From a virus, in UHGV virus genome UHGV-0098755: a DNA stretch of 64,000 bases, one strand, 5' to 3'. Below, in pieces: positions 3,376-21,050 of the stretch. The position numbers were made by a program, and so were the translations under genes. The notes under the pieces are model-generated. The model searched no databases, was not told the origin of the DNA, and saw only the letters and a program-made list of their open reading frames with translations. The stretch's first letter is position 1. Each line of letters starts with the position of its first letter.

Positions 3376-4032
3376 ATGGCAGCACCTAGAATATCATTTT
3401 CGCCCTCTGATATTCTGTTTGGTGTTCTAGATCGCTTGTTCAAAGATAACGCTACCGGGAAAGTTCTTGCTTCCCGGGTAGCTGTCGTAATTCTTTTGTT
3501 TATAATGGCGATTGTTTGGTATAGGGGAGATAGTTTCTTTGAGTACTATAAGCAATCAAAGTATGAAACATACAGTGAAATTATTGAAAAGGAAAGAACT
3601 GCACGCTTTGAATCTGTCGCCCTGGAACAACTCCAGATAGTTCATATATCATCTGAGGCAGACTTTAGTGCGGTGTATTCTTTCCGCCCTAAAAACTTAA
3701 ACTATTTTGTTGATATTATAGCATACGAAGGAAGATTACCTTCAACAATAACTGAAAAATCACTTGGAGGATATCCTGTTGATAAAACTATGGATGAATA
3801 TACAGTTCATTTAAATGGACGTCACTATTATTCCAATTCAAAATTTGCTTTTTTACCAACTAAAAAGCCTACTCCCGAAATAAATTACATGTATAGTTGT
3901 CCATATTTCAATTTGGATAATATCTATGCTGGAACGATAACCATGTACTGGTATAGAAATGATCATATAAGTAATGACCGCCTTGAATCAATATGTGCTC
4001 AGGCGGCCAGAATATTAGGAAGGGCTAAATAA
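3376..4032 (+). CDS. t: Holin (218 aa)
   Basis: 218 aa, N-terminal TM segment, large periplasmic domain; length and sequence as T4 holin. Confidence 0.9.
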   Translation: MAAPRISFSPSDILFGVLDRLFKDNATGKVLASRVAVVILLFIMAIVWYRGDSFFEYYKQSKYETYSEIIEKERTARFESVALEQLQIVHISSEADFSAVYSFRPKNLNYFVDIIAYEGRLPSTITEKSLGGYPVDKTMDEYTVHLNGRHYYSNSKFAFLPTKKPTPEINYMYSCPYFNLDNIYAGTITMYWYRNDHISNDRLESICAQAARILGRAK

Positions 4033-16861: not shown

Positions 16862-17131
16862 TTATTTAAAACGAATAGTCGAATCCTTGAAGAATAGTCC
16901 AGAACATACTGTTCCTTCTACTTTCTGCCCAGTAGGTCCAATAGCACGAAATCCAGTATGCTGGAAATCATTTTCAGAGCAACCGAACCAATTATATCCA
17001 GTGATTTCAATATTAGTAAAACCACTTGAAGACAAAACTTTGGTTGCATTATCAGCATCAGTACATCCTATTAAAGACACTGCTAATACTAATGCTGCAA
17101 TAGAACGATTAATATATTTCATAATTTTCAC
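16862..17131 (-). CDS. Lipoprotein (89 aa), 39.1 position
   Basis: Signal peptide with lipobox LIGC. Confidence 0.6.
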   Translation of the reverse strand: MKIMKYINRSIAALVLAVSLIGCTDADNATKVLSSSGFTNIEITGYNWFGCSENDFQHTGFRAIGPTGQKVEGTVCSGLFFKDSTIRFK

Positions 17132-17499
17132 TTAAATTTAATGGCTTGAAGAAGACTAATAACTCTCAAGCGGCTTCTTTCATCTTTAACTGTAAAGGAA
17201 AGAGGGTCACCAGATTTCATAGTGATAGTGCATTCAAAATCAAAATTTTCGGGAACTTCTTCGAAGAAGTCAAATTCTTCAGCATAAATTAGAACATTAC
17301 TCTGAAAACTGTGAAGAATTTTTCCGTCATTTCCAGATGCTGTACTAATCATCGTAACATTATGACCTTTCATATCTTCAACGATAAATTCGCTTGTAGA
17401 TATTACAGCATTAATAGAACCATTCCTATAAATAGCAGACATTAGATATTTCTTTTCTTCGCCTTCGCGAATACGATATTTCTTACCGATTTTAAACAT
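17128..17499 (-). CDS. Hypothetical protein (about 123 aa from ATG at 17499)
   Basis: ORF; track start at 17505 is GTG. Confidence 0.5.
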   Translation of the reverse strand: MFKIGKKYRIREGEEKKYLMSAIYRNGSINAVISTSEFIVEDMKGHNVTMISTASGNDGKILHSFQSNVLIYAEEFDFFEEVPENFDFECTITMKSGDPLSFTVKDERSRLRVISLLQAIKFK

Positions 17500-17501
17500 A
17501 A

Positions 17502-17678
17502 TCACCCTTTAAGTAAGTCGTAAAATCCACCATTCACATGCTTAGGAGCGGAAACTAACCGAATAGCAATCCGATGACAATCAGGACATACATCAGTATC
17601 CCTTTCAGAAATTTTCTTGATTTTTTCGTATTCTTTTGCGCAGTCTTTGGATTGACATTTATAATCATAAAGAGGCAT
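17502..17678 (-). CDS. FmdB-like zinc-ribbon micro-protein (58 aa)
   Basis: Hand-translated MPLYDYKCQSKDCAKEYEK...CPDCHRIAIRLVSAP; two Cys pairs. Confidence 0.5.
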   Translation of the reverse strand: MPLYDYKCQSKDCAKEYEKIKKISERDTDVCPDCHRIAIRLVSAPKHVNGGFYDLLKG

Positions 17679-17680
17679 AA

Positions 17681-18100
17681 TTATTCCTTAAAGTGAGCTT
17701 TCAACATCTGATACAATGACCATGCCTGTTCATTATTTTCAATAGTAACTTTCATTACCGGGAATTCTGTGAAATCTTCTATTTGTTCTTGCTCTTCCTG
17801 CTCTTGTTCTTCAGCAGCCTGATATGGATTTTCAACTTCATCAAAGAACCCAGCTTCGTTAGTAGAGAGCCAGATAAAGTTTTCGTCAAGGATATCACCG
17901 CCGGCACAACGTTTGAGTACACCTATGGATGTCATAATTTTAGTAGGACGCCCAAGATAATCAGCATCTAAAATTTTAAAAGGCTCCATACCTAAACGTC
18001 GTGCATAGATTCCGTTATCAGTATGGTCTTTAATAAAATTTTCTTGAGCTTGTTTATTTTTAAATTGATACCATTTATTAACTTCAAATTTAATAGCCAT
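17681..18100 (-). CDS. Hypothetical acidic protein (139 aa), goF position
   Basis: ORF with [10 protein letters not shown] stretch. Confidence 0.45.
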
Positions 18101-18315
18101 TAATAAATTTCCTTCCAGTAAGTTGTGCCGTCTTCAGTAATTTCACGAAATACACCGTAAATTGGCTGTTTATCACCGACTTTCTCATACACATAAACCG
18201 AAGTCAAGTGAGTAAACTTGCTAGTGTGTTCCTTTTGAACTACTACCAAATTTGGATCAAATAATACATCTTCAAATTCGTCATTAGTGCAATTCTGAAC
18301 AATTTTACGTTTCAT
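18100..18315 (-). CDS. Hypothetical protein (71 aa), cef position
   Basis: ORF. Confidence 0.45.
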
Positions 18316-18328
18316 TACAATTTCCTCA

Positions 18329-18607
18329 TTAATTGAACAGTGGAGCGATACGTTTCAGAAGAGTAGCAGCACCTTTGGCGAATTTTACATCATGAAAAAC
18401 AGTTTCTTCTGTAACAACTCGAGCTTTAATATTTTCACAATCCCAATTTTTACGAACAATCTTCAAAAGCTGCAGTAAATCTTTACATTCAGCAATATCG
18501 ATAACACATCCACGAGAATCTTCCATTATCGCACGATAACCGTAAGCCATACCATAATCGTTGAAAGATTGCTCGATGATAATTAAGTTTTCCATTTTAT
18601 TCTCCAA
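18329..18607 (-). CDS. Hypothetical protein (92 aa)
   Basis: ORF. Confidence 0.5.
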   Translation of the reverse strand: MENKMENLIIIEQSFNDYGMAYGYRAIMEDSRGCVIDIAECKDLLQLLKIVRKNWDCENIKARVVTEETVFHDVKFAKGAATLLKRIAPLFN

Positions 18608-18692
18608 GTTATTTTCTGTATCAGTAGTTGATATTGATATAGTACCATAATCAACTACTGATGTATATAGTTTTATGAAAAAAATTTAAACT

Positions 18693-19181
18693 TTATGCAT
18701 AGAGAGCATTGCTATAGTGTTTAATCCAACTTTCAGGAATGACTTTGTATGTTCCTAAAAATACCACATTGTACAGCTTAACACCATCTTCTACCCATTG
18801 ATCGGTAATGTATCCACACATAGCACGAGTATAAACAACCCTTCCATCGTCTTTGATAAAGTTAAATTCACAAGGAGCAATGAACTTAATAGCTTGACCG
18901 AGTTTCCACTTAAAGTCTACACCTACATGCGAAGTATCAATCGTTTCAATTCCTTTAGCAGGAACAGCTTTCAAAAACGCAGATTCAAGAAATTTCGCAC
19001 GAACATAGCCAAACTGGGGTTTAGACTTTCCATCTTTAGGAATGATACGCACTTTTACTTCAGAATCTTCATCTTTAACACCGTGTTTAAGCTGAATGCT
19101 TACAATTTCGACCAATTTTCCTGCTGCTTTAGAACGGGATTTATCAGATACACGAGCTAATTCACCAATATTAATAATCAT
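18693..19181 (-). CDS. motB: MotB-like protein (162 aa)
   Basis: 162 aa at T4 motB position. Confidence 0.5.
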   Translation of the reverse strand: MIINIGELARVSDKSRSKAAGKLVEIVSIQLKHGVKDEDSEVKVRIIPKDGKSKPQFGYVRAKFLESAFLKAVPAKGIETIDTSHVGVDFKWKLGQAIKFIAPCEFNFIKDDGRVVYTRAMCGYITDQWVEDGVKLYNVVFLGTYKVIPESWIKHYSNALYA

Positions 19182-19257
19182 AGTTATCTCTCACTTGTTA
19201 AAAAGATTTTATACTTCACGGGACCATTATACTCTGGTCCCAAGAGTTTGTAAACTA

Positions 19258-19800
19258 TTAATTTAAAATAGCTACCACCGCACTACGAGGTACTACACTA
19301 AAATCACCTGCATGAACAACGTTCAGAAGTTCAACACCATCTTCAATCCATTGGTCTGTTACCCAACCACAGACCGAAATAAATGGAGTCTTGATAGCTA
19401 CTGCATGAGTCAAAAGGTCAGTAGGATCGCATTCTTGAAAGAGGATAAGCTCTGCTTCAAAGACTATAGTTTTAATTACTTCATCATTATCTAAGCGATG
19501 TGCTCGAATCACGTAAGCTTTATTCTTATCATACCAGTTACTTTTTGAAAAGCTTTTAACCACAAACTCGCCTTCACCAAAAGCATTAGTCAATGCTTTA
19601 TAACCCAAATTTAGTTCAGTAGTTTTAATTTCAGTTTCAACCAGTTTGTAGGTTTTGCCAATTTCGATGGTCCGAGCAGTCATAAATGTTTCCTTAATTT
19701 CTAATGGTTTAACAAGAGTGCCGTACATGCTTGCTATATCCATATCAAACGGTTTATCTACAGGATTCGGTGTGTATTCAGGATTATAATTAAATTTCAT
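19258..19800 (-). CDS. Paralogue of the adjacent MotB-like protein (180 aa)
   Basis: Shared C-terminal motif CGW(V/I)TDQW(I/V)EDGV.L.NVV. Confidence 0.5.
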   Translation of the reverse strand: MKFNYNPEYTPNPVDKPFDMDIASMYGTLVKPLEIKETFMTARTIEIGKTYKLVETEIKTTELNLGYKALTNAFGEGEFVVKSFSKSNWYDKNKAYVIRAHRLDNDEVIKTIVFEAELILFQECDPTDLLTHAVAIKTPFISVCGWVTDQWIEDGVELLNVVHAGDFSVVPRSAVVAILN

Positions 19801-19802
19801 AA

Positions 19803-20342
19803 TTATCTCATTTCAATAAAATCTACGAGTTCAGCATGCGATTTGCGGAACATTACTTGGTGCCCACCAATGATAACTTCATCTTCAGGAACTTCGTATA
19901 CAGCGAGATAAAATCCTTTAGAAGATAATTCTTCCCGTTCTTCTCGCGTGAACCATCTCATCATATCATATTCGCTAGCGAAAGCAAAATGATAAAGACC
20001 TATAAACCATCCTGGAATATGATATTCTACTCCAACATAATCTTTCTTGAACTTAGTATTAATTACTATATTAGCGTTTTTAACTAATAGTTTATCTTCG
20101 TGTGGTAAAGGAATTCTTTTATTATTATCGCTATGATGCATAAAATTAGGTCTGTCATAACCTACGTGTAATAGCCACTCTTCGCTCCATGAATCTATTA
20201 TACTCCTGTACGGCGTTATTTGAACACAAAGATTTCGACGTATTGTTATAGCATCTTCATAATCAAGAATACTAAACGATGATTCAACACGATAAATTTT
20301 CATTTTATTATCCTCAGTAGCTATGGTGTTATAATACCACAA
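19803..20342 (-). CDS. Hypothetical protein (179 aa)
   Basis: ORF. Confidence 0.5.
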   Translation of the reverse strand: MWYYNTIATEDNKMKIYRVESSFSILDYEDAITIRRNLCVQITPYRSIIDSWSEEWLLHVGYDRPNFMHHSDNNKRIPLPHEDKLLVKNANIVINTKFKKDYVGVEYHIPGWFIGLYHFAFASEYDMMRWFTREEREELSSKGFYLAVYEVPEDEVIIGGHQVMFRKSHAELVDFIEMR

Positions 20343-20366
20343 CTAACCGAGGAAGTAAACAACTTT

Positions 20367-21050
20367 TTATCGTTTTGTTGGAAGAGACAGAGGATCGCAT
20401 TCTTCCTCTGACGGAGCGTCTTCAAGACCCATAGCATATCGCAAAGCATACTTCATCATCAGGATGTCTTTCGCACAGTCATGAATAGAATCATGCGCAA
20501 CGAATCCATCTAAAGTTCCTTTTGGAAGAGGACACGTGGTCATATCACGAACAAGCAGAAGTGCTTCAATTCTGGTACGAATATCACGCTGATTCCAGAA
20601 TTTACATGGTTCTAACTTAAATGTGTCAAGTTCATTCTCGGAAACGCCGTTAAGACGTTGAATATCACGAATGAGATCGACTAAAATTGGAAAATCAAAC
20701 GACATTCCACGGCACCAGCCTTGAGATTTCCAAGGATCGATGTTATGTGCATTGATGTAATCATTAAATTTTGCAATACCATCGATAGTGCTTACATCTT
20801 CATCTGATGGCGCAATATTTTTTCGAGCTTCAGGAGACTGATTTTTCCACCATTCGATAGTGCTTTTAGTAAAAAGACGATGTCCTTTTTGACTTTTTAA
20901 ATCAAATTTGATTTTAATGCCGCGCGAAACTAATTCATCAAATGATTCAACCACTTCTGGGTTAGGGTCAAAGGCAATAACAGCCAAATCAATAACAGCT
21001 GCTTTTTCACCGCTTCCCATTGTTTCAAAATCTATAATAAAATCAAACAT
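20367..21050 (-). CDS. dexA: Exonuclease A DexA (227 aa)
   Basis: 227 aa DEDD-like exonuclease motifs; synteny. Confidence 0.7.
   Translation of the reverse strand: MFDFIIDFETMGSGEKAAVIDLAVIAFDPNPEVVESFDELVSRGIKIKFDLKSQKGHRLFTKSTIEWWKNQSPEARKNIAPSDEDVSTIDGIAKFNDYINAHNIDPWKSQGWCRGMSFDFPILVDLIRDIQRLNGVSENELDTFKLEPCKFWNQRDIRTRIEALLLVRDMTTCPLPKGTLDGFVAHDSIHDCAKDILMMKYALRYAMGLEDAPSEEECDPLSLPTKR

What the first reader, a model, noticed from the sequence alone, without database searches (positions are those of the whole stretch)
18693..19800. Adjacent paralogous genes at the motB locus
The 162-aa and 180-aa products of neighbouring genes share a C-terminal block (...CGYITDQWVEDGVKLYNVVFLG... versus ...CGWVTDQWIEDGVELLNVVHAG...) while their N-terminal halves diverge. 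Each has its own early promoter. This is a local duplication followed by diversification in a region of host-takeover genes.
Basis: seen in the sequence. Interest (0 to 1): 0.4.

Follow-up and report, generated by a model that had tools for sequence, protein, structure and literature searches.

The report
motB and motB.1 share a C-terminal domain
Two neighbouring early genes of a T4-like phage (motB and a motB.1-type gene) really do end in the same small beta-barrel domain, but this was published in 2021 and the gene pair is an ordinary, widespread feature of T-even phages.

Summary
The window is a T4-like (Tequatrovirus) early region. ORF 18693-19181(-) is MotB, 161/162 identical to T4 MotB. 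ORF 19258-19800(-) is a 180-aa MotB.1-class protein.

Their direct similarity covers only 32-37 residues (BLASTP E 2e-12; hhalign E 7.6e-14). PHROG profiles, intermediate sequences and AlphaFold2 strand patterns show that the whole C-terminal domain is homologous: MotB ~88-156 matches 180-aa ~125-178. The two differ by a ~16-20-residue hairpin indel.

The N-terminal domains are unrelated in sequence. MotB's is basic and KOW-like. The 180-aa protein has a conserved disordered peptide followed by a GoF/MotB.1-type barrel, and it is acidic overall (pI 4.9, against 9.2 for MotB).

Kanagawavirus and Marfavirus phages carry a single KOW+CTD gene at the same locus. This supports a local duplication followed by replacement of the N-terminal domain, not gradual divergence.

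"Each has its own early promoter" holds for motB only. The 180-aa gene starts 2 nt after motB.2 and probably shares its promoter.

The shared CTD and the duplication idea were published by Son et al. 2021.

By-product: the 119-aa T4 reference MotB.1 results from one extra G that is absent in other T4 genomes, where the protein is 143 aa.

The parts
18693..19181 (-). motB, 162 aa (modifier of transcription; a DNA-binding protein that remodels H-NS-DNA complexes in T4)
   Evidence: Pfam PF17613 matches the full length, E 1.3e-113. It is 161/162 identical to T4 MotB, differing only by I26V. It matches phrog_1671.
18975..19181 (-). MotB N-terminal KOW/SH3-like barrel (residues 1-69), basic (+4.6)
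18714..18920 (-). MotB C-terminal domain (residues ~88-156), a five-stranded barrel with a long first hairpin
   Evidence: AF2 predicts strands 97-109, 115-131, 134-141, 144-149 and 153-156. MotB residues 79-152 hit the MotB.1-family profile phrog_2333, E 4.7e-12. The alignment with intermediate sequences is A6.
18717..18827 (-). Core shared block in MotB (residues 119-155, RAMCGYITDQWVEDGVKLYNVVFLGTYKVIPESWIKH)
19258..19800 (-). 180-aa MotB.1-class gene, in the motB.1 position between motB.2 and motB
   Evidence: phrog_2333 matches the full length, E 4e-76; T4 MotB.1 belongs to the same family. There are 232 close homologues, and GenBank annotates them as 'motB-like protein' or 'transcriptional regulator'.
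19261..19428 (-). C-terminal domain of the 180-aa protein (residues 125-180, DPTDLL...AILN), acidic (-5.1), short-hairpin form
   Evidence: AF2 predicts strands 133-137, 142-153, 156-163, 166-171 and 175-179. The last four coincide with MotB strands at an offset of +22. Residues 119-178 hit the MotB profile phrog_1671, E 1.5e-16. The domain is 79% identical to the CTD of 143-aa T4 MotB.1.
19270..19380 (-). Core shared block in the 180-aa protein (residues 141-177)
19429..19674 (-). N-terminal barrel of the 180-aa protein (residues ~43-124), MotB.1/GoF class
   Evidence: AF2 pLDDT is 75-82, with strands 50-53, 78-86, 95-102 and 108-114 and helix 61-74. This segment alone hits phrog_2333 positions 40-127, E 1e-22. 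Foldseek matches T4 MotB.1 (P39415) at E 1.3e-5 over 120 columns. There is no similarity to the MotB NTD.
19675..19800 (-). Conserved N-terminal peptide, predicted disordered (residues 1-42), containing the motif DMDIASMYGTLVKPLEI (residues 19-35, 19696-19746)
   Evidence: pLDDT is below 50, yet most columns are invariant in family alignment A3. The motif recurs at other positions in relatives.
19226..19254 (-). Early-type promoter of motB (TTTACA-17-TATAAT, 11/12). Its -10 hexamer lies in the loop of a GGGACCA/UGGUCCC hairpin (19220-19241).
   Evidence: The sequence is identical in T4. A promoter is annotated at this spot in phage wV7.
20331..20359 (-). Probable early promoter of the motB.2/180-aa gene pair (GTTTACT-17-TATTAT with an upstream TG)
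   Evidence: It lies in the 63-nt dexA-motB.2 gap. The assignment is by consensus only and has not been tested.
19803..20303 (-). motB.2 (166 aa from the ATG at 20303). Its stop codon lies 2 nt before the start of the 180-aa gene.
   Evidence: phrog_1106.

Best explanation
This is the motB/motB.1 gene pair of a T-even phage. Both proteins end in the MotB C-terminal domain (CTD), a five-stranded SH3/Tudor/KOW-like barrel of ~55-70 residues. Its invariant core is TDxWxE-G--L-NVV.

Origin. The pair most likely arose from a single ancestral KOW+CTD gene that sat between motB.2 and cef, and that gene duplicated locally.
- One copy, motB, kept the basic KOW barrel. Its CTD carries a long, partly basic hairpin, and the gene has its own strong early promoter.
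- The other copy, motB.1 (here the 180-aa form), kept the tight junction to motB.2 and a CTD close to the single-copy form. Its KOW barrel was replaced by a GoF-class barrel. In this phage a conserved peptide motif sits at the N-terminus.

Function.
- Shown for T4 MotB, which is 161/162 identical: it binds dsDNA tightly and without sequence specificity, alters H-NS-DNA complexes, is toxic when expressed alone, and doubles burst size.
- Inferred for the 180-aa protein: it is acidic (net -8) and so probably does not coat DNA. The shared CTD core is most likely a protein-contact or scaffold module, used for self- or hetero-association or for binding a common partner. It would give two different N-terminal effector barrels access to the same target.
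For: Identity of the genes.

Homology over the whole CTD:
- The two proteins hit each other's PHROG family profiles over 60-74 residues.
- AF2 strands coincide at an offset of +22, and both models have the SH3-type short helix between strands 4 and 5.
- Intermediates P0232, P0238, P0239 and P0245 combine DPTDLL, the long hairpin and VELLN.

Duplication:
- The two genes are adjacent and in the same orientation.
- PEi20, CIP9 and AmPh_EK29 have one CTD gene at the syntenic locus.
- The PEi20 protein aligns over its full length with the MotB family (E 1.1e-15). Its CTD is 70% identical to the 180-aa CTD and 49% identical to MotB over 35 aa.
- Distant members P0244 and P0256 pass the Pfam KOW gathering score.

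NTD replacement:
- NTD against NTD gives E 0.5.
- MotB.1-class NTDs weakly cross-hit the GoF family phrog_622, and goF plus a second phrog_622 gene lie 1-2 kb downstream.
- Kim et al. 2025 group the MotB.1, GoF and Frd.2 NTDs.

Charge: MotB pI 9.23 (+5.8), the 180-aa protein pI 4.91 (-8.2), its CTD -5.1.

MotB biochemistry: PMC6070864 and PMC7827196.
Against: - No experiment addresses the 180-aa form.
- T4 delta-motB.1 has no burst or latent-period phenotype.
- The domain of MotB that binds DNA is unknown, so the CTD could itself contribute to DNA binding.
- The order of events is unresolved. The outgroup-like members P0244 and P0256 have MotB-like long-hairpin CTDs. The Kanagawavirus single gene could therefore be a motB.1 orthologue that kept KOW after an older duplication and loss of motB.
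- The AF2 model of the 180-aa protein is only moderate (mean pLDDT 68.8, 17 shallow sequences).
Confidence: 0.7

Rival explanations
1. Whole-gene tandem duplication followed by rapid divergence only. The N-terminal domains of MotB and the 180-aa protein would be the same ancestral SH3-like barrel, diverged beyond sequence recognition.
For: Both proteins are predicted to be tandem small-barrel proteins, and both models hit the same Tudor/KOW/EF-P/IF5A set. Foldseek aligns the 180-aa model with a 163-aa MotB-type protein over 174 columns (E 3e-5, 18% identity).
Against: There is no NTD-NTD sequence signal even profile to profile (E 0.5), while the CTDs of the same genes keep 49-56% identity. The KOW NTD with its SRSKxAG signature is preserved almost unchanged in proteins carrying the MotB.1-type CTD (PEi20, P0231, P0236). 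MotB.1-class NTDs group instead with GoF-family barrels and occur in several arrangements with the peptide motif. That pattern is typical of module exchange.
Confidence: 0.15
2. There was no local duplication. The CTD is a mobile module that was fused independently, by recombination between phages, to a KOW gene and to a GoF-like gene that happen to be neighbours.
For: The family is mosaic. The same CTD occurs with at least three NTD types, with the peptide motif in three different positions, with doubled NTDs (P0235) and with extra N-terminal domains (P0240). RB69 has a different gene order and three CTD genes. The window itself is a mosaic, at most 95.5% identical to any record over the whole 2.1-kb query.
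Against: The CTD genes are always clustered in the same dexA-cef interval. Only 34 clusters at 50% identity exist among 1.84 billion representatives. Among the complete phage records examined, all CTD genes lie in that dexA-cef interval. Single-copy genomes exist at the same site.
Confidence: 0.1
3. The 180-aa protein is a second non-specific DNA-binding 'transcriptional regulator' that acts like MotB, as many GenBank records annotate it.
For: It gets a Pfam motB hit above the gathering score. GenBank annotates it as 'transcriptional regulator' or 'MotB-like'.
Against: The Pfam hit covers only 34 of 162 profile positions. The protein has pI 4.9 and net charge -8, and its CTD has 2 basic against 7 acidic residues. 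The basic KOW NTD of MotB is absent.
Confidence: 0.1

Closest known systems
T4 MotB (Pfam PF17613, phrog_1671)
   Same: The 162-aa ORF is this protein, 161/162 identical. The 180-aa ORF shares its C-terminal barrel.
   Different: The 180-aa protein lacks the basic KOW-like NTD and the long hairpin of the MotB CTD, and it is acidic.
T4 MotB.1 and its relatives (phrog_2333; Categories 2 and 4 of Son et al. 2021)
   Same: It occupies the same position, immediately after motB.2 and before motB. It belongs to the same PHROG over its full length. Its CTD is 79% identical to the 143-aa T4 form. The NTD is structurally similar (Foldseek E 1.3e-5).
   Different: The NTD is very divergent in sequence: BLASTP and hhalign similarity to T4 MotB.1 begins only at about residue 106. 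It has an extra 42-residue N-terminal peptide with the DxDxA(S/C)MY motif, which T4 MotB.1 lacks. The same 180-aa form is present in T6 (90.6% identity) and RB14 (88.7%).
GoF / Frd.2 / MotB.1 'LSm-like fold' family (Kim et al. 2025, PMC12152347)
   Same: The NTD of MotB.1-class proteins is placed in this family. goF and a second phrog_622 gene lie 1-2 kb downstream in the window.
   Different: The window's 180-aa NTD shows no direct significant hit to GoF (hhalign E 0.28). The link is indirect: phrog_2333 and phrog_622 cross-hit at E 0.003-0.02.
Single-copy 'MotB' of Kanagawavirus and Marfavirus phages (PEi20, CIP9, AmPh_EK29)
   Same: It sits at the same locus. It combines the MotB-type KOW NTD, the peptide motif and a MotB.1-type CTD. 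It therefore unites in one gene the features that are split between the two window genes.
   Different: It is one gene, not two, and has no GoF-class barrel.
Tandem SH3-like barrel proteins (Spt5 KOW6-KOW7, 53BP1 tandem Tudor, EF-P/IF5A domains)
   Different: Sequence identity is 5-23%. This is fold resemblance only and there is no evidence of shared function.

Membership tests
MotB (Pfam PF17613) | Full-length match to the family model above the gathering score | tested here: met
   For the 162-aa ORF: 376.6 bits against a cutoff of 25, residues 1-162 on profile 1-162.
MotB (Pfam PF17613) | The same full-length match, applied to the 180-aa ORF | tested here: not met
   The score is 34.1 bits, above the cutoff, but only residues 142-175 match profile positions 120-153. 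hhalign aligns only 37 columns. It shares a domain with MotB and is not a MotB orthologue.
MotB.1 family (phrog_2333) | Full-length profile match, plus a position between motB.2 and motB | tested here: met
   E 4e-76 over residues 1-180 on profile 1-210. T4 MotB.1 hits the same PHROG at E 1.7e-46. Gene order is shown.
GoF-like / LSm-like barrel (phrog_622; Kim et al. 2025) | [quoted passage not shown] | tested here: inconclusive
   Foldseek matches T4 MotB.1 at E 1.3e-5. The AF2 NTD has 4-5 strands plus one helix at pLDDT 75-82. hhalign against GoF gives E 0.28. Only indirect PHROG cross-hits exist.
KOW domain (Pfam PF00467) | Sequence match to the KOW motif in the MotB NTD | tested here: inconclusive
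OB-fold, cold-shock type (assigned to the MotB CTD by HHpred in Son et al. 2021) | Five-stranded OB barrel with OB topology | tested here: inconclusive
Tandem gene duplicates | Adjacent, same strand, homologous, with a single-copy state at the syntenic site in relatives | tested here: met
   Homology covers the CTD only, not the full length.

The most novel reading that the evidence does not exclude
MotB-CTD proteins are a small modular adaptor family. In this reading, a conserved barrel (the CTD) and a portable disordered peptide motif (DxD-hydrophobic-A-S/C/H-M-Y...P-L) dock onto a common host or phage partner, possibly H-NS/StpA or RNA polymerase, as bacterial Tudor-like domains of CarD, Mfd and PcrA do. 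Interchangeable N-terminal barrels then deliver DNA-binding activity (KOW, MotB) or RNA-related activity (GoF-class, MotB.1) to that partner. The acidic 180-aa protein would then modulate or antagonise MotB through CTD-mediated hetero-association. A corollary: published negative results for T4 MotB.1 were obtained with a 119-aa construct that lacks most of the CTD and may not reflect the natural protein.
Probability: 0.15. Interest if true: 0.5.

Novelty: already known. Interest (0 to 1): 0.2.

Why it matters
MotB is one of the few T4 host-takeover proteins linked to H-NS and nucleoid remodelling, and its mechanism and active domain are still unknown.

Three results here narrow where to look.
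- The conserved core shared with MotB.1 is neutral to acidic.
- The basic charge of MotB sits in the KOW barrel and in the MotB-specific hairpin.
- Single-gene relatives combine both sets of features.

The practical by-product may matter more. The reference T4 record truncates MotB.1 to 119 aa through one extra G. Recent functional work synthesised that truncated form. Conclusions about MotB.1 may therefore need re-testing with the 143-aa protein.

Tried and rejected
- Direct extension of the alignment. BLASTP and hhalign of the two families stop at 32-37 residues. Extension was obtained only through PHROG profiles and intermediate sequences.
- NTD-NTD homology. A permissive local hhalign gave E 0.5, so this was rejected.
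- 180-aa family against GoF. hhalign gave E 0.28, so there is no direct link.
- Solved structures. phmmer of MotB against PDB sequences found nothing below E 0.6.
- A third CTD copy, or further copies of the peptide motif, in the 64-kb window. None were found.
- Recent gene conversion between the two CTDs. Rejected: 54% nucleotide identity, longest identical run 12 nt.
- Intrinsic terminators between the genes. None were found by the scan; only hairpins without T-runs are present.
- A promoter of its own for the 180-aa gene. The only candidate, ATGAGA-17-TATAAT at 19811..19783, has its -10 hexamer downstream of the start codon, so it was rejected.
- Close relatives of the distant KOW+CTD proteins (P0244). 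None exist in the GenBank phage collection; the best match is 35% identical, so their genomic context could not be examined.
- Limits of the tools.

Full report
**What is there**

The window is a T4-like (Tequatrovirus) genome segment. On the minus strand the order is dexA (20367-21050), motB.2 (19803-20303 from its ATG), a 180-aa ORF (19258-19800), a 162-aa ORF (18693-19181), an 88/92-aa ORF absent from T4 (18329-18607), cef (18100-18315) and goF (17681-18100).

The 162-aa ORF is MotB. Pfam PF17613 matches it end to end (E 1.3e-113), and it differs from T4 MotB only by I26V.

The 180-aa ORF sits where T4 has motB.1. It belongs to the same PHROG as T4 MotB.1: phrog_2333, E 4e-76 for the window protein and 1.7e-46 for T4. 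It has 232 detectable relatives. Full-length relatives include T6 (90.6%) and RB14 (88.7%). GenBank records annotate it variously as 'motB-like protein', 'transcriptional regulator' or 'hypothetical protein'.

**Checking the observation**

The quoted strings are present.
- BLASTP aligns MotB 120-151 with 180-aa 142-173: 56% identity, 81% positives, E 2e-12, and nothing else.
- hhalign of a 44-sequence MotB alignment against a 17-sequence alignment of the 180-aa family aligns 37 columns (MotB 119-155 = 180-aa 141-177), E 7.6e-14.

The block is therefore real, but by direct comparison it is short.

Three lines of evidence show that the whole C-terminal domain (CTD) is homologous.
- PHROG profiles reach further. 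MotB 79-152 hits the MotB.1-family profile (E 4.7e-12), and 180-aa 119-178 hits the MotB profile (E 1.5e-16).
- The AlphaFold2 models give five strands in each CTD. In MotB they are 97-109, 115-131, 134-141, 144-149 and 153-156. In the 180-aa protein they are 133-137, 142-153, 156-163, 166-171 and 175-179. The last four coincide exactly at an offset of +22. Both models have a short helix between strands 4 and 5.
- A CTD profile search of 1.84 billion representative proteins found only 34 clusters. Among them are intermediates (P0232, P0238, P0239, P0245) that combine the DPTDLL start and VELLN core of the MotB.1 type with the long first hairpin of the MotB type.

MotB ~88-156 thus corresponds to 180-aa ~125-178, with a ~16-20-residue hairpin indel.

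The block is old. Nucleotide identity is 54%, third-position identity is 38%, and the longest identical run is 12 nt. No third copy exists in the window.

**The N-terminal parts are different modules**

- In the 180-aa protein, residues 1-42 are predicted disordered yet nearly invariant in the family.
- Residues ~43-124 of the 180-aa protein form a barrel of the MotB.1 class. This segment alone hits phrog_2333 at E 1e-22. Foldseek matches T4 MotB.1 at E 1.3e-5.
- A profile comparison of the two NTDs gives E 0.5.
- Kim et al. 2025 place the T4 MotB.1 NTD with GoF and Frd.2 in an 'LSm-like' barrel family.
- In the window, goF and the 125-aa ORF at 17128-17505 both belong to phrog_622. There are weak cross-hits between phrog_622 and phrog_2333 (E 0.003-0.02). 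The 180-aa family shows no direct hit to GoF (E 0.28).

**Origin**

In Kanagawavirus phages PEi20 and CIP9 the syntenic interval reads dda-dexA-motB.2-[one gene]-cef-goF. In the Marfavirus phage AmPh_EK29 it reads dexA-(homing endonuclease)-[one gene]-cef. tblastn finds a single CTD place in the Kanagawavirus-type records and in AmPh_EK29.

The PEi20 protein (151 aa) has these features:
- It aligns with the MotB family over its whole length (E 1.1e-15), including the KOW signature.
- Its CTD is 70% identical over 56 residues to the 180-aa CTD (E 2e-28).
- Its CTD is 49% identical over 35 residues to MotB.

More distant members (P0244, P0256) pass the Pfam KOW gathering score and carry the CTD. 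The KOW+CTD architecture is therefore ancestral, and the KOW barrel occurs with both CTD types.

The simplest history is a local duplication of a KOW+CTD gene followed by replacement of the KOW barrel by a GoF-class barrel in the motB.1 copy.

The timing is unresolved. The distant members have MotB-like long hairpins. The short-hairpin single-copy gene of Kanagawavirus could therefore be a motB.1 orthologue left after loss of motB.

RB69 shows further turnover, with the order dexA-motB.1-(29-aa ORF)-motB-MotB-like-motB.2-cef.

**The promoter claim**

A near-consensus early-type promoter, TTTACA-17-TATAAT, lies in the 76-nt gap before motB (19254..19226). It is identical in T4, and a promoter is annotated at this spot in phage wV7.

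The 180-aa gene starts 2 nt after the motB.2 stop. The only promoter-like match nearby has its -10 hexamer inside the gene. The best upstream candidate is GTTTACT-17-TATTAT with TG, in the dexA-motB.2 gap (20359..20331). The 180-aa gene is thus most likely co-transcribed with motB.2. These are consensus matches, not mapped starts.

**Function**

For T4 MotB the following are published:
- tight, non-specific dsDNA binding
- co-purification with H-NS and StpA
- altered H-NS footprints
- de-repression of host genes on over-expression
- toxicity when expressed alone
- a two-fold burst-size benefit

These come from PMC6070864 and PMC7827196.

My calculations give the following charges.

| Protein or region | pI | Net charge |
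|---|---|---|
| MotB | 9.23 | +5.8 |
| MotB NTD | | +4.6 |
| MotB CTD | | about neutral |
| 180-aa protein | 4.91 | -8.2 |
| 180-aa CTD | | -5.1 |

About half of the basic residues of the MotB CTD lie in the MotB-specific part, residues 88-118.

I therefore infer two things. The shared core is a scaffold or protein-contact module, not the DNA-binding surface. The 180-aa protein does not coat DNA like MotB. Neither inference has been tested.

T4 delta-motB.1 has no burst phenotype.

**Fold**

**Novelty**

Son et al. 2021 already described the shared CTD, the different NTDs (their Categories 1, 2 and 4) and a possible duplication. Kim et al. 2025 described the MotB.1 NTD fold. Only these two papers in the library mention motB.1. 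The finding is therefore already known.

What this analysis adds:
- whole-CTD homology through intermediates
- the single-copy KOW+CTD state at the syntenic locus
- the contrast in charge
- the portable peptide motif
- the promoter correction
- the T4 reference frameshift, described next

**By-product: the T4 reference frameshift**

In NC_000866.4/AF158101.6, motB.1 is 119 aa because of one extra G (CAATGGATTgGAAGATGG). T4 MT984581.1 and T4T HM137666.1 lack that G and encode a 143-aa protein with a complete CTD.

Eleven further T4, RB55 and RB59 records match the 509-nt reference stretch over 508 nt. That fits the same one-base difference, but I did not align them individually.

Kim et al. synthesised motB.1 from NC_000866.4, so they studied the truncated form.

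In the RB69 reference record, the 132-aa motB.1 and the 29-aa 'Category 3' peptide are likewise one CTD broken by indels.

Noticed in passing
L001 (T4 NC_000866.4) 2292-2651, equivalent to window 19258-19430: The T4 reference record annotates motB.1 as 119 aa (UniProt P39415, 13.8 kDa). This is due to a single extra G in CAATGGATTgGAAGATGG. T4 MT984581.1 and T4T HM137666.1 lack that G and encode 143 aa with the full conserved CTD. Eleven more T4, RB55 and RB59 records show the same 1-nt length difference. Kim et al. 2025 synthesised the gene from NC_000866.4, so they studied the truncated form.
   Followed up: yes
L009 (RB69 NC_004928.1) 3377-3873: RB69 motB.1 (132 aa) and the 29-aa ORF RB69p012 ('Category 3' of Son et al. 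2021) are one MotB.1 CTD interrupted by indels. The intact equivalent is P0241. Both clone-era reference genomes thus carry frameshifts in this CTD. This could reflect sequencing errors or selection against a toxic insert during cloning; neither was tested.
   Followed up: partly
window 19696-19746 (-), residues 19-35 of the 180-aa protein: The peptide DMDIASMYGTLVKPLEI lies in a region that is predicted disordered but nearly invariant. It recurs at different positions in relatives. It sits between the KOW NTD and the CTD in PEi20, P0236, P0238, P0239, P0243, P0245 and P0246. It sits between the GoF-class barrel and the CTD in P0241 and RB69. It is N-terminal in the window protein, P0242 and P0235. 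It looks like a portable short linear motif; its partner is unknown.
   Followed up: partly
window 19220-19241 (-) and about 18625-18665 (-): Stable RNA hairpins occupy both intergenic gaps. GGGACCA/UGGUCCC encloses the -10 hexamer of the motB promoter (z -3.9). A 13-bp stem follows motB (z -4.6). Neither has a T-run. They may be processing or stability elements, or may attenuate read-through from the motB.2 promoter.
   Followed up: partly
window 18329-18607 (-): An 88/92-aa ORF (phrog_3720, unknown function) lies between motB and cef. It is absent from T4 and present in CM8, wV7 and others.
   Followed up: no
window 17128-17505 (-) and 17681-18100 (-): goF and the 125-aa ORF two genes downstream are paralogues: both match phrog_622 over their full length (E 2e-39 and 7e-30). 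This is a second local family of small-barrel proteins in the same early region, and it is weakly linked to the MotB.1 NTD.
   Followed up: partly
P0235 (251 aa), P0240/P0115 (246-250 aa), from metagenomes: Some MotB.1-class proteins have a doubled GoF-class barrel or an extra ~80-residue N-terminal domain. This shows continuing module shuffling in the family.
   Followed up: no
window 19803-20342 (-): The mechanical ORF call for motB.2 starts at a TTG (179 aa). The real start is almost certainly the ATG at 20303 (166 aa, as in T4). A GAGGA Shine-Dalgarno sequence and the promoter-like site lie upstream of that ATG, inside the extended ORF.
   Followed up: yes
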